This document shows, in pieces, positions 53,969 to 56,263 of a stretch of 64,000 bases of DNA. Positions within the stretch are counted from its first letter, which is position 1, and every line of letters begins with the position of its first letter. The translations under genes and the position numbers were made by a program. The notes beneath the pieces are model-generated. The model saw nothing but the letters and a program-made list of their open reading frames with translations. It searched no databases and was not told where the DNA came from. Location: NCBI GenBank assembly GCA_000165345.1, contig CM000430.1, forward strand, positions 448,001 through 512,000. The letters run 5' to 3'.

Positions 53969-56263
53969 TTATGAATATATTCTTTCATTATTTTCTTGAT
54001 TTTTTTTACGCAAATTAATAATTGAAATTCCTGCATATCTTCCTAAACTCATGATTGTATAGACAGGATTAATTCTTGGCAATATTTTTAAAAGAGACGC
54101 ATCAACAATACCTAAGTTTCTTGTGCCTGATAATAAAAACGATTCATTTTCCACAAGCTCTCCCAATGGAACAGATCCTGACCAATGCCAAATACTTGTT
54201 CCTATATTGTAAGCTAATCTTAAAATTTCGTCTTTATTCGAAAGATCTGGAAGTATTGGAGGGAATGTTGCAATTTTCTCAAATATTATGTTTTTGCTTT
54301 CAAGACAATCCCTTGGGTCAGAAACTCCGTTACATTCATCTGGAAATATTGAATTTTTATAATTGAGTATGATGTTATAAACATTTTCAAGCTCATCCAT
54401 AAAATCTGGAGATAGTGGCTTGTTTATAAATAATCTCTCAGTTCTTGCAGATGCAAGCACGCCAATTATGCCATTCAATACTGTCATAGGGCATGAAGAG
54501 TATCCTCCTTGTTCTGCAATATTTTGAAATCTTCCTGACCTTAGCATCTTTATCACAGAACTAAGTCCAATTATTACGTTTTCTCTATCTTCTTCTTCCG
54601 ATAAATATTTCCCATCTAATTCAAATTTTCCATCACTTTTTACACTTATTCCCCCCCTGCTTTTAGGTTCAGATGTAAAATAAAAAACAGCAGCAGATCT
54701 CCTTAGACATTCTAAAGGATACTGTAAAATCAGACAAATTGGTATTCCTCCACTTAATGGGTAATTTTCTGCGCATTTTTTGAATATTTCAATCACAAAA
54801 TCCGTAACAATATTATTCCTAAGTCTTGGAGGGAAAATAAGTCTTGTAGCATATAATGTGCCTTCCACAGTTCTTCCTCCTCCCAAAGACTCGATATTAA
54901 TAGTACTGCAGCTATATCCGCAATTTCCAGAAGTTTTTGAAAAACTTGACATGATTGGGTTTACGAAAGGGTTAGTAAAAACATCACTTTTGAAAAAAAA
55001 TGGAATTGCAAATAACAATCTATCGACGATATTTGTTCCCAAATTTGGAACTTCTAGCAATGGCATTATATTCATATTTTGTAGAGATTCAAGAGGTCCT
55101 ATCCCGGACTTATAAAGTAATACAGGGGTATGGATTGCCCCTGATGATAGTATTATCATTCCATTGTCATTTAAACAAATTCTTTTGGCAAAGATACTTC
55201 GAATTAAGTCTTTAGAAGGTTTTATACCGTCCTCAATACCAAATTCATTGGCCAGTTTTCCTGCAGTTATATTAAAAAATGGGTATTCAAAGTCAGAATA
55301 TTGATTTTTTAACATAACTCTTTCTAAAATAATACATTTTGCATTTAAAACACTTTTACTAGAAAGTGCCGATTGAAAACCCATTTTATTATAATTAAAT
55401 TTTCCTCCTAAATTTGCATTCCTTAAAAATGGAAAACCTGTGCTTTGAGTTTTGTTTCCTCTAATCTCTCTCTGTCCTTCGATTTGTTCAAACTCTACTT
55501 TTGTTACAAGATGGTTTGTTAAAATATCAACAGGACTTGTTTCAATGACCGTATTATTTTTGGCATTTTGATAATCAGAAAGTAAGATATCTGATGACAT
55601 TCTGAAACCGTGGTCACTTACATTAAATAGATTGTATACTCTCCAAGTTCCGTTTATTCTATTTAAGCTGAATTCTGAGTTCGGGTTTTTTTCTGTCACA
55701 AATCCAATATCTTTAAATGCATTCTCCATAGGTTCAACAATTGGGAGATCCTGATCGCCTTTATTACTAACTCTATTTACAATCCAATCATAACTCTCTT
55801 TCAAAATGGTTTTGTTAAAACTAGCTCCTGAATTTTCTTCTAAAAGTTTGAAATATTCTGGATTTTCTTCCATGATCATTCCCATATTTATTGCTGTCCC
55901 ACCTCCTAATACATTTCCAATATGAGTTCTTATTCCCTGTTTAGTAATAACAAGTTCGCTAACTTTTTTGTCATCCACAACACTTCCCATTCCTTTTATA
56001 TCACGAGTAAGTATTGATTCATCTAGCCTAGCACCTCCTCTTTCTACAAGCAAAACAGAGTATTTCGAGTCAGCAAGAGTTCTAGCTAATGCGCATCCTG
56101 CAGCCCCACCCCCAACTACTATATAATCATAGCTAGATTTAATATTCCTCGATCCAGTTATGATTCTTTTAGGTAAAACGAAAGCTCTCGCACTTATTTT
56201 TTCAAAAATACGAAGCGCATTTAGTGAAAATAATAATAAAGTGAAATATAAAATATTTTTCAT
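53969..56263 (-). CDS. Secreted GMC-family FAD oxidoreductase (choline dehydrogenase / glucose oxidase-like)
   Basis: 764 aa. It has an N-terminal signal peptide ([16 protein letters not shown]) and the GMC N-terminal FAD-binding fingerprint [32 protein letters not shown]. The GMC C-terminal substrate-domain region is recognisable, and several insertions are present relative to a typical 550-600-aa GMC enzyme. Confidence 0.75.
   Translation of the reverse strand: [764 protein letters not shown]

What the first reader, a model, noticed from the sequence alone, without database searches (positions are those of the whole stretch)
53969..56263. Secreted GMC-family FAD oxidoreductase: unusual cargo for a reduced parasite genome and a possible horizontal acquisition
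A signal peptide plus the GMC FAD fingerprint ([19 protein letters not shown]...LLVERGG) indicates an extracellular or secretory-pathway choline-dehydrogenase/aryl-alcohol-oxidase-like enzyme. The gene is intronless, at 764 aa it is longer than typical GMC proteins, and it is flanked by unrelated housekeeping genes. GMC oxidoreductases are typical of bacteria and fungi. An extracellular H2O2-generating or alcohol-oxidising enzyme in a parasite would matter for host interaction.
Basis: partly seen in the sequence, partly recalled or inferred. Interest (0 to 1): 0.55.

Follow-up and report, generated by a model that had tools for sequence, protein, structure and literature searches.

The report
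Female-stage secreted GMC oxidoreductase cgd2_2510
This is the already annotated Cryptosporidium parvum gene cgd2_2510, a secreted plant-HOTHEAD-like flavoenzyme that the parasite inherited vertically and switches on in female gametes, so it most likely helps build the oocyst rather than attack the host, and it is not a recent gene transfer.

Summary
Window 53969-56263 (-) is an intact, intronless 764-aa ORF with GMC_oxred_N and GMC_oxred_C domains, the FAD fingerprint and a signal-like N-terminus.

The interpretation mostly fails. The window is C. parvum Iowa II and the gene is cgd2_2510, already annotated as a GMC oxidoreductase. Orthologues sit in conserved synteny in four Cryptosporidium species. 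Relatives occur in gregarines, Eimeria/Cyclospora, Besnoitia, Cardiosporidium, Chromera, Vitrella and a dinoflagellate. These form one clade (bootstrap 97) that is sister to land-plant HOTHEAD/mandelonitrile-lyase proteins, not to bacterial or fungal GMCs.

GC3 is the lowest in the window and dN/dS is 0.11-0.13, so there is no sign of recent transfer or of fast evolution.

Published data show about 42-fold up-regulation in female gametes and the protein in oocysts. Eimeria GMC relatives are gametocyte-specific, and one is reported in wall-forming bodies.

The catalytic His693/Asn732 pair and the FAD residues are conserved. The extra length comes from lineage-specific insertions.

Best reading: a secretory alcohol oxidase or dehydrogenase acting in oocyst-wall biogenesis. 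The substrate is unknown. A HOTHEAD-like role on cutin-like wall lipids is an untested, interesting possibility.

The parts
53969..56263 (-). Complete CDS of cgd2_2510 (764 aa, intronless), a GMC-family FAD oxidoreductase
   Evidence: ORF. 100% identical to C. parvum Iowa II EAK88750.1 / CPATCC_000681. Gene id taken from the Tandel 2019 supplement, where it is listed next to cgd2_2500, DNA pol alpha/epsilon subunit B.
56213..56263 (-). Signal-peptide-like N-terminus (residues 1-17, [17 protein letters not shown]). The cleavage site is not determined.
   Evidence: Hydropathy scan (maximum 10-residue Kyte-Doolittle score 2.25). Equivalent hydrophobic N-termini occur in orthologues and in chromerid and dinoflagellate relatives. 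Residues 14-38 are disordered in the AF2 model.
56033..56131 (-). FAD-binding beta-alpha-beta motif (residues 45-77; G51, G53, G56, E74)
   Evidence: G51/G53/G56/E74 are invariant in Cryptosporidium and in the plant sequences.
54989..56131 (-). GMC_oxred_N region (residues 45 to about 425), interrupted by two insertions
   Evidence: Pfam PF00732, two stretches. PDB alignments cover residues 33-236 and 369-420.
55376..55474 (-). Cryptosporidium-only insertion (residues 264-296), predicted disordered
   Evidence: Absent from other apicomplexans and from plants in alignment A3. pLDDT below 50.
55199..55306 (-). Insertion shared with other apicomplexans and absent from plant HOTHEAD (residues 320-355); much of it modelled at low confidence
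55097..55141 (-). [15 protein letters not shown] (residues 375-389). It matches the GMC signature-2 pattern, which I recalled from memory of PROSITE.
   Evidence: Regex match. S386, G387, G389 and P390 are invariant or nearly invariant.
54281..54463 (-). Helical insertion in the substrate-binding domain (residues 601-661). It is specific to the myzozoan clade and greatly expanded in coccidia.
   Evidence: absent from plants. Helices at 591-608, 619-639 and 650-656 in the AF2 model. Expansion in Eimeria and Besnoitia is visible.
54041..54247 (-). GMC_oxred_C region (residues 673-741)
   Evidence: Pfam PF05199, 36.3 bits.
54185..54190 (-). Trp692-His693: the catalytic histidine and the preceding tryptophan (equivalent to PaAOX1 Trp486-His487 and almond HNL His459)
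   Evidence: H693 is present in every sequence that covers this column. Equivalence comes from the 8s2y and 1ju2 alignments, plus the residue numbering in bioRxiv 10.1101/2025.01.06.631446, using an offset of 89 that I derived.
54068..54070 (-). Asn732, the second active-site residue (equivalent to PaAOX1 Asn525). Prunus hydroxynitrile lyases have His at this position.
   Evidence: N in 12/12 Cryptosporidium, 12/13 other apicomplexan and 24/25 plant-type sequences. The 1ju2 alignment shows 'ashpq' against 'rinpv'.

Best explanation
The ORF is cgd2_2510 of Cryptosporidium parvum. It is a vertically inherited member of a myzozoan (apicomplexan, chromerid, dinoflagellate) clade of secretory GMC flavoenzymes, whose sister group is the land-plant HOTHEAD/AA3 clade.

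Shown:
- It has an intact FAD site and a His693/Asn732 catalytic pair of the oxidase/dehydrogenase type.
- It has a secretory-type N-terminus.
- It is under strong purifying selection.
- Transcription is about 42-fold higher in female gametes.
- The protein is present in oocysts.

Inferred: the enzyme enters the ER of the macrogamont, is stored with other wall precursors (wall-forming bodies) and acts while the oocyst wall is assembled. There it oxidises a hydroxyl group of a wall precursor to a carbonyl, reducing FAD. FAD is then re-oxidised by O2, giving H2O2, or by another acceptor.

Of the two possible useful outputs I favour the oxidised alcohol product slightly. That product would be a hydroxy-fatty-acyl or glycerol-containing precursor of the acid-fast lipid layer, analogous to HOTHEAD in plant cutin. 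The alternative is H2O2 for oxidative protein cross-linking. I favour the first because Cryptosporidium walls are reported to lack dityrosine but to contain cutin-like polyhydroxy acyl lipids. The substrate is not known.
For: - Identity and annotation.
- Domains, fold and catalytic residues.
- Secretory N-terminus conserved across the clade. The paralogue cgd8_2670 is named 'secreted GMC-like oxidoreductase' by its source.
- Conserved cysteines: C310, C363, C497, C510 and C519 are invariant among the 12 apicomplexan sequences, and C452 and C591 are at least 90% conserved. There are 7 N-x-S/T sequons.
- Vertical inheritance: synteny; tree and taxa.
- Constraint: dN/dS 0.11-0.13.
- Expression: Tandel 2019 (PMC6877471), Supplementary file 4, gives log2 CPM of 4.14 in asexual stages, 9.52 in cultured females and 10.70 in in-vivo females, logFC 5.38. 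The paralogue cgd8_2670 has logFC 5.84. Their Supplementary file 6 pairs cgd2_2510 with the E. tenella gametocyte gene ETH_00031405.
- Protein: quantified in excysted oocysts (PMC12548878, S7 Table).
- Eimeria: ETH_00031405 reads 124 (gametocyte) vs 0.19 (merozoite) vs 2.9 (sporozoite), and ETH_00033360 reads 476 vs 0.45 vs 13.8. A GMC oxidoreductase is in the E. necatrix wall-forming-body/oocyst-wall proteome, and EnOXIO1 is reported on wall-forming bodies (PMC10729351). GenBank 'oxidoreductase 1 [E. necatrix]' falls in the coccidian branch of this clade. ETH_00031400, a GMC, drops when bleach strips the outer wall layer.
- HOTHEAD analogy: HTH oxidises omega-hydroxy fatty acids for cuticle, and PaAOX1 oxidises glycerol. 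Cryptosporidium walls lack dityrosine and glucan but have acid-fast lipids with cutin-like polyhydroxy acyl chains (PMC3760245).
Against: - No localisation, knockout or enzymology exists for cgd2_2510. No open-access main text mentions it.
- The oocyst proteome was whole excysted material, not purified walls.
- My NJ tree does not resolve where the Cryptosporidium clade sits inside the myzozoan clade (internal bootstraps 3-27). One-to-one orthology with the Eimeria wall-forming-body enzyme therefore rests on OrthoMCL grouping and best hits.
- I could not read the EnOXIO1 paper. Its identity with UGL75378.1 is inferred from the name only, and PMC10729351 ties the localisation to a different accession (XP_013435736.1).
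- Bleach treatment changed 1344 proteins, so the ETH_00031400 decrease is weak evidence.
- Signal-peptide prediction was manual.
- Oxidase versus dehydrogenase cannot be told from sequence.
Confidence: 0.72

Rival explanations
1. H2O2-generator model. The enzyme's useful product is hydrogen peroxide, which peroxidases in the forming wall use to cross-link wall proteins (dityrosine/DOPA type). The alcohol substrate is incidental. This shares stage and location with the best explanation and differs only in which product matters.
For: Oxidoreductases are proposed to drive dityrosine cross-linking in Eimeria wall formation (PMC10729351). Redox genes are enriched in C. parvum females, and amine oxidases are named as wall-protein modifiers (PMC6877471). 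H2O2 supply is also considered the possible main role of the plant relative PaAOX1. The inner wall proteins are described as highly cross-linked.
Against: Cryptosporidium oocyst walls are reported to lack dityrosine (PMC3760245). Their cross-linking is attributed mainly to disulfides of the cysteine-rich COWPs. The substrate-binding domain, including its clade-specific helical insertion, is conserved and under purifying selection, which suggests the substrate matters.
Confidence: 0.25
2. A horizontally acquired (bacterial or fungal) extracellular oxidase is secreted toward the host by the parasite, generating H2O2 or oxidising host alcohols as a host-interaction factor.
For: It is a secretory-type GMC enzyme. 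GMC oxidases can produce H2O2 (general knowledge of the family). Asexual stages have a low but non-zero transcript level (log2 CPM about 4.1).
Against: The gene belongs to a myzozoan-wide clade and has conserved synteny. Its nearest outgroup is plants, not bacteria or fungi. GC3 and codon usage look native. Expression is about 42-fold biased to females. dN/dS is 0.11-0.13.
Confidence: 0.04
3. A non-redox relative. The protein is either a hydroxynitrile lyase, as some database names for the paralogue suggest ('(R)-mandelonitrile lyase'), or a catalytically dead structural or FAD-binding wall protein.
For: Prunus hydroxynitrile lyases are among the best sequence and fold matches. The paralogue is named mandelonitrile lyase in C. 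hominis records.
Against: Position 732 is Asn, as in HOTHEAD and PaAOX1. Almond HNL has His there ('ashpq'). The Asn is conserved in all Cryptosporidium and almost all clade members. All FAD-binding residues are retained. HNLs are a derived branch inside the plant clade (the Linum/Prunus/Rosa subclade). No cyanogenic metabolism is known in the parasite (own knowledge).
Confidence: 0.04

Closest known systems
Eimeria gametocyte GMC oxidoreductases (E. necatrix EnOXIO1 / 'oxidoreductase 1' UGL75378.1; E. tenella ETH_00031405, ETH_00031400, ETH_00033360)
   Same: They belong to the same myzozoan GMC clade and the same OrthoMCL group as ETH_00031405. Both are sexual-stage specific. They share the clade-specific insertions and the conserved cysteines. 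An Eimeria GMC is reported in wall-forming bodies and in the wall proteome.
   Different: Eimeria proteins are 850-1100 aa, with a much larger insertion at the position of residues 601-661. Eimeria walls contain dityrosine and glucan, which Cryptosporidium walls are reported to lack. Identity is only about 31-33%. One-to-one orthology is not resolved by my tree.
Plant HOTHEAD (Arabidopsis HTH) and the spruce alcohol/glycerol oxidase PaAOX1 (PDB 8s2y), CAZy AA3
   Same: Best non-alveolate relatives by sequence (E = 2.5e-35 to 8s2y) and by fold, and the sister clade in the tree. They share the Trp-His ... Asn active-site arrangement and are secreted enzymes. HTH acts on omega-hydroxy fatty acids for an extracellular lipid polyester.
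   Different: Identity is about 24-28%. The parasite protein has roughly 170 extra residues in insertions. It has Met127 where PaAOX1 has Ala130 (my mapping). The substrate of the parasite enzyme is unknown.
C. parvum paralogue cgd8_2670 (EAK89454.1, 'secreted GMC-like oxidoreductase')
   Same: Same clade. It has a signal-like N-terminus and is also up in females (logFC 5.84).
   Different: Only 28% identical and 698 aa long. It has Ser at the position of Asn732 and no E. tenella gametocyte partner in the published table.
Prunus FAD-dependent hydroxynitrile lyases (1ju2, 3red, 5eb4)
   Same: Top Foldseek matches (target TM-score 0.82-0.84) and about 1e-28 by sequence.
   Different: They are non-redox lyases with His at the second active-site position, where this protein has Asn. 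They are a derived angiosperm subclade.

Membership tests
GMC oxidoreductase superfamily (Pfam PF00732 + PF05199) | N-terminal FAD-binding beta-alpha-beta fold with GxGxxG and an acidic residue about 20 residues downstream | tested here: met
   G51-x-G53-x-x-G56 and E74 are present, and invariant in the Cryptosporidium and plant sequences.
GMC oxidoreductase superfamily (Pfam PF00732 + PF05199) | Both Pfam domains score above their gathering thresholds | tested here: met
   GMC_oxred_N 46.9 bits against a cut-off of 23. GMC_oxred_C 36.3 bits against 24.6.
GMC oxidoreductase superfamily (Pfam PF00732 + PF05199) | Conserved catalytic His near the C-terminus, paired with a second His or Asn | tested here: met
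   His693 is present in every sequence covering the column. Asn732 is at least 90% conserved.
GMC oxidoreductase superfamily (Pfam PF00732 + PF05199) | Two-domain GMC fold (FAD-binding domain plus substrate-binding domain) | tested here: met
   AF2 model with pTM 0.84. Foldseek gives E of about 1e-32 and target TM-scores of 0.80-0.84 to solved GMC structures.
GMC oxidoreductase superfamily (Pfam PF00732 + PF05199) | PROSITE GMC signatures 1 and 2 (patterns recalled from memory) | tested here: inconclusive
   Signature 2 matches at residues 375-389. Signature 1 does not match as I recalled it. Because the patterns come from memory, this carries little weight.
GMC oxidoreductase superfamily (Pfam PF00732 + PF05199) | Binds FAD and oxidises an alcohol | not testable with these tools
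   Requires recombinant protein.
Plant HOTHEAD / AA3-type secreted alcohol oxidases | Groups with HTH/PaAOX1 rather than with bacterial or fungal GMCs | tested here: met
   It is the sister clade, not nested inside. The myzozoan clade has bootstrap 97, the plant clade 100 and their union 100. The hit ranking agrees.
Plant HOTHEAD / AA3-type secreted alcohol oxidases | His/Asn active-site pair with a preceding Trp | tested here: met
   W692-H693 and N732 correspond to PaAOX1 W486-H487 and N525.
Plant HOTHEAD / AA3-type secreted alcohol oxidases | Oxidation of omega-hydroxy fatty acids or glycerol | not testable with these tools
This is an analogy only.
Apicomplexan sexual-stage (wall-forming-body) GMC oxidoreductases | Macrogamete/gametocyte-specific expression | tested here: met
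   From published supplements: logFC 5.38 for females versus asexual stages. The Eimeria gene models are 395- to 670-fold up in gametocytes versus merozoites.
Apicomplexan sexual-stage (wall-forming-body) GMC oxidoreductases | Localisation to wall-forming bodies or the oocyst wall | not tested
   Reported only for E. necatrix. For cgd2_2510 there is only detection in whole excysted oocysts.
Recently horizontally transferred gene | Patchy distribution, foreign composition, and a donor-lineage sister in trees | tested here: not met
   The gene is genus-wide with conserved synteny and phylum-wide in distribution. GC3 is 0.213 against a window mean of 0.261, and codon-usage distance ranks 9th of 22.
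FAD-dependent hydroxynitrile lyase | Second active-site His (almond HNL His497) in place of Asn | tested here: not met
   The protein has Asn732 ('rinpv') where 1ju2 has 'ashpq'.

The most novel reading that the evidence does not exclude
The myzozoan secreted GMC clade is the functional counterpart of plant HOTHEAD. In female gametes, cgd2_2510 (and perhaps cgd8_2670) would oxidise hydroxylated fatty-acyl or glycerol moieties of precursors made by the parasite's polyketide/fatty-acid synthases. This would create the carbonyl or carboxyl groups needed to build or cross-link the acid-fast, cutin-like lipid layer that makes oocysts resistant to chlorine. Oocyst-wall lipid chemistry and plant cuticle chemistry would then share an enzyme of common descent, inherited from before the apicomplexan-dinoflagellate split, possibly by way of an algal endosymbiont. 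I found no paper making this link: 'HOTHEAD' does not occur in the key oocyst-wall lipid paper, and cgd2_2510 occurs in no open-access main text.
Probability: 0.25. Interest if true: 0.6.

Novelty: already known. Interest (0 to 1): 0.25.

Why it matters
As it stands, this is an annotated gene with published stage-specific expression, so the finding corrects an interpretation rather than revealing something new.

It still matters modestly. The oocyst wall is what makes Cryptosporidium waterborne and chlorine-resistant. The enzymes that build its lipid and protein layers are largely unknown. Two conserved, female-specific, secreted flavoenzymes with small-molecule active sites are plausible transmission-blocking targets. 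They also offer a concrete entry point for testing the proposed cutin-like chemistry of the wall.

The plant-sister phylogeny adds one more 'green-looking' gene to the debate on algal-derived genes in plastid-less Cryptosporidium. A Chromera GMC was already scored as having green affinity in PMC3516247.

Tried and rejected
- Recent HGT: rejected on synteny, distribution, composition and the tree.
- Bacterial or fungal affinity: rejected. Plant HTH/HNL proteins outrank every bacterial and fungal GMC by sequence and by fold.
- Hydroxynitrile lyase: rejected because position 732 is Asn rather than His.
- Word-indexed homologue searches missed Sarcocystidae, the chromerids and the paralogue. The exhaustive profile search plus cluster look-ups were needed to find them.
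- The afdb50 fold library was unavailable, so presence in Toxoplasma and absence from Plasmodium could not be checked by structure. I make no claim about Plasmodium.
- Papers not held: EnOXIO1, Walzer 2024 and the Cryptosporidium hyperLOPIT paper. I therefore have no sub-cellular assignment and no female sub-cluster timing.
- SignalP is not available. I used hydropathy plus conservation across orthologues instead.
- The 111-aa antisense ORF at 54780-55115 (+) was treated as a shadow ORF and not pursued.
- I did not analyse the 345-bp upstream intergenic region for female-specific promoter motifs.
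Full report
**1. Observation**

It runs 53969..56263 on the minus strand, ATG to stop, 764 aa. An in-frame stop lies 18 codons upstream and there is no alternative start. Residues 45-77 read [33 protein letters not shown]. Pfam scores GMC_oxred_N at 46.9 bits and GMC_oxred_C at 36.3 bits, both above their gathering cut-offs.

The N-terminus ([17 protein letters not shown]...) has a lysine, an 11-residue hydrophobic core and no other membrane-span-like segment. The signal peptide was judged by hydropathy and conservation only, because SignalP is not among the tools.

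**2. Identity of the window and gene**

The protein is 100% identical to a C. parvum Iowa II protein (EAK88750.1, CPATCC_000681). The supplementary tables of Tandel et al. [quoted passage not shown] The window ORF next door, 52474-53904 (+), is a DNA_pol_E_B protein, so the gene is cgd2_2510. It is therefore already annotated as a GMC oxidoreductase.

**3. Is it foreign?**

Four lines of evidence say no.

(a) *Genus-wide orthologues.* Identities are 99% (C. tyzzeri), 96% (C. meleagridis), 84% (C. ubiquitum), 68-71% (C. felis, C. bovis, C. ryanae) and 53% (C. andersoni, C. serpentis). The local gene order is upstream ~190-210-aa gene, GMC, DNA_pol_E_B, ~290-300-aa gene. It is conserved in C. 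meleagridis, C. ubiquitum and C. andersoni (in C. andersoni the upstream ORF is merged into the GMC gene model). Peptidase_M24 follows in C. andersoni and in the window.

(b) *Distribution beyond the genus.* An exhaustive profile search of 1.84 billion representatives found 246 proteins at E <= 1e-30. At the top are about 35 long proteins, most matched end to end in one stretch. After these come shorter proteins matched in three or four stretches; those placed in the tree group with plant HOTHEAD or in basal branches of the 48-sequence clade. Names recovered for a sample of the long proteins are:
- Gregarina niphandrodes and Selenidium pygospionis;
- several Eimeria species and Cyclospora;
- three Besnoitia besnoiti paralogues;
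- Cardiosporidium cionae;
- Vitrella brassicaformis and Chromera velia;
- the dinoflagellate Gymnodinium smaydae;
- a second C. parvum gene, cgd8_2670.

(c) *Tree.* A neighbour-joining tree (66 sequences, 539 trimmed columns, 100 bootstraps) puts all of these in one clade of 48 sequences, bootstrap 97. This clade is sister to a land-plant HOTHEAD/mandelonitrile-lyase clade (bootstrap 100). The union of the two has bootstrap 100 against fungal and other GMCs. Branching inside the myzozoan clade is poorly resolved.

(d) *Composition.* GC3 is 0.213, the lowest of the 22 ORFs of at least 200 codons in the window (others 0.261 +/- 0.020). The gene is thus more, not less, AT-biased than its neighbours. 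Its codon-usage distance ranks 9th of 22.

The best solved relatives are the spruce alcohol oxidase PaAOX1 (8s2y, E = 2.5e-35) and Prunus hydroxynitrile lyases (about 1e-28). The next hit, an alcohol oxidase from the bacterium Sphingobacterium daejeonense (8rpf, identified), is at about 4e-18. Foldseek on the AF2 model (pLDDT 82.6, pTM 0.84) gives the same ranking.

Any transfer involving a plant or algal lineage must predate the split of apicomplexans and dinoflagellates. A Chromera GMC was already scored as 'green' in a published survey (PMC3516247). My tree cannot say whether the plant-sister position reflects endosymbiotic transfer, older HGT or ancient vertical descent.

**4. Anatomy**

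FAD-binding residues G51, G53, G56 and E74, together with N126, are conserved in Cryptosporidium, other apicomplexans and plants. His693 is present in every sequence that covers the column. Asn732 is present in 12/12 Cryptosporidium, 12/13 other apicomplexan and 24/25 plant-type sequences.

I mapped residues through the 8s2y alignment and the numbering in the PaAOX1 preprint, with an offset of 89 that I derived. This gives W692-H693 = PaAOX1 W486-H487, N732 = N525 and M127 = A130. Almond HNL has His where this protein has Asn. The active site is therefore of the oxidoreductase (HOTHEAD/PaAOX1) type, not the lyase type.

About 173 residues absent from plant relatives account for the extra length:
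- a Cryptosporidium-only disordered insert, residues 264-296;
- an apicomplexan insert, residues 320-355;
- a helical insert, residues 601-661, which is hugely expanded in coccidia;
- several short ones.

Five cysteines are invariant and two more nearly so among the 12 apicomplexan sequences, and there are seven N-glycosylation sequons. Both fit a secretory protein; this step is inference. Hydrophobic N-termini are present in almost every full-length clade member, from Cryptosporidium to Vitrella, Chromera and Gymnodinium.

dN/dS is 0.13 (C. parvum vs C. meleagridis) and 0.11 (C. parvum vs C. ubiquitum). That is strong purifying selection.

**5. When and where it is made**

In Tandel et al. 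2019, Supplementary file 4 (columns checked), cgd2_2510 has these mean log2 CPM values:
- 4.14 in sorted asexual stages;
- 9.52 in cultured females;
- 10.70 in females from mice.

The logFC is 5.38, about 42-fold. The paralogue cgd8_2670 behaves the same way, with logFC 5.84. Their Supplementary file 6 places cgd2_2510 with E. tenella ETH_00031405 among genes shared between C. parvum females and E. tenella gametocytes. The main text states that 69 female-biased genes, most with signal peptides, probably act in oocyst-wall synthesis.

The protein is quantified in excysted-oocyst material (PMC12548878, S7 Table).

In E. tenella, expression values (gametocyte / merozoite / sporozoite) are 124 / 0.19 / 2.9 for ETH_00031405 and 476 / 0.45 / 13.8 for ETH_00033360. 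A GMC oxidoreductase is in the E. necatrix wall-forming-body and oocyst-wall proteome, and EnOXIO1 is cited as localised to wall-forming bodies (PMC10729351). ETH_00031400 (GMC) decreases when hypochlorite strips the outer wall layer (PMC12784848). That last point is weak, since 1344 proteins changed.

GenBank 'oxidoreductase 1 [E. necatrix]' (UGL75378.1) lies in the coccidian branch of this clade. I infer that it is EnOXIO1, but I could not read that paper.

**6. Mechanism**

*Shown:* a conserved, constrained, secretory-type GMC flavoenzyme whose mRNA is female-specific and whose protein is in oocysts.

*Inferred:* it travels through the ER to wall-forming bodies or the nascent wall and oxidises an alcohol group there.

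Two outputs could matter. The first is the oxidised product. Plant HOTHEAD converts omega-hydroxy fatty acids toward alpha,omega-diacids for cutin, and PaAOX1 oxidises glycerol. Cryptosporidium walls are reported to lack dityrosine and beta-glucan but to contain acid-fast lipids with cutin-like polyhydroxy acyl chains (PMC3760245). The second is H2O2 for oxidative cross-linking, as is discussed for Eimeria.

I lean slightly to the first for Cryptosporidium, and neither has been tested. The host-interaction reading is disfavoured by stage specificity and slow evolution.

**7. Novelty and score**

The gene, its family assignment, its female-specific expression and its Eimeria counterparts are all in public records, so I rate the finding 'already known'.

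What is not in the literature I could search is the explicit HOTHEAD/cutin to oocyst-wall-lipid connection. 'HOTHEAD' does not occur in Bushkin 2013, and cgd2_2510 occurs in no open-access main text. I give that reading about 25% probability and moderate interest if true. Overall interest is 0.25.

Noticed in passing
window 56609-57184 (-) and locus L001 6001-9284: The C. andersoni and C. serpentis GMC gene models (987 and 988 aa) carry a ~220-aa N-terminal extension. Residues 173-213 of it match the C-terminus of the upstream C. parvum ORF (cgd2_2520, uncharacterised): 46% identity, E = 3e-7. The model spans more DNA than its CDS, so it contains an intron. It is probably a merged gene model of two neighbouring genes, and the merge hides the signal peptide in those species.
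   Followed up: partly
not in the window (C. parvum chromosome 8; protein P0294 / EAK89454.1): A paralogue, cgd8_2670 (698 aa, 28% identical), belongs to the same myzozoan clade. It is also up in females (logFC 5.84). It keeps the catalytic His but has Ser where cgd2_2510 has Asn732.
   Followed up: partly
proteins P0141 and P0142 (E. tenella XP_013233307.1; E. necatrix UGL75378.1): These Eimeria models lack the whole N-terminal FAD-binding GxGxxG segment, so they are probably truncated or split gene models. The adjacent ids ETH_00031400 and ETH_00031405 may be fragments of one gene or tandem copies. Besnoitia has two copies close together (BESB_030660 and BESB_030730).
   Followed up: no
protein P0024 (XP_028344104.1, labelled Physeter catodon): A 'sperm whale' protein groups with the Besnoitia GMCs in the tree (bootstrap 81 for the four-sequence group). 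It is almost certainly a sarcocystid contaminant in the whale assembly.
   Followed up: no
window 53969-56263 compared with the other 21 ORFs: The gene has the lowest GC3 in the window (0.213 vs mean 0.261, z = -2.3), although its overall GC (0.326) is average because GC1 and GC2 are high. The cause is unknown; expression-linked codon bias is one possibility.
   Followed up: no
window 38138-42013 (+), 42790-44235 (-), 48443-49861 (+): Neighbouring genes are a P4-type phospholipid flippase (PhoLip_ATPase_N/C), a pseudouridine synthase and a Peptidase_M24 protein. The last is probably methionine aminopeptidase 2, cgd2_2480. This is an ordinary housekeeping context.
   Followed up: no
window 54780-55115 (+): A 111-aa ORF lies antisense, inside the GMC coding region. 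I treated it as a chance shadow ORF.
   Followed up: no
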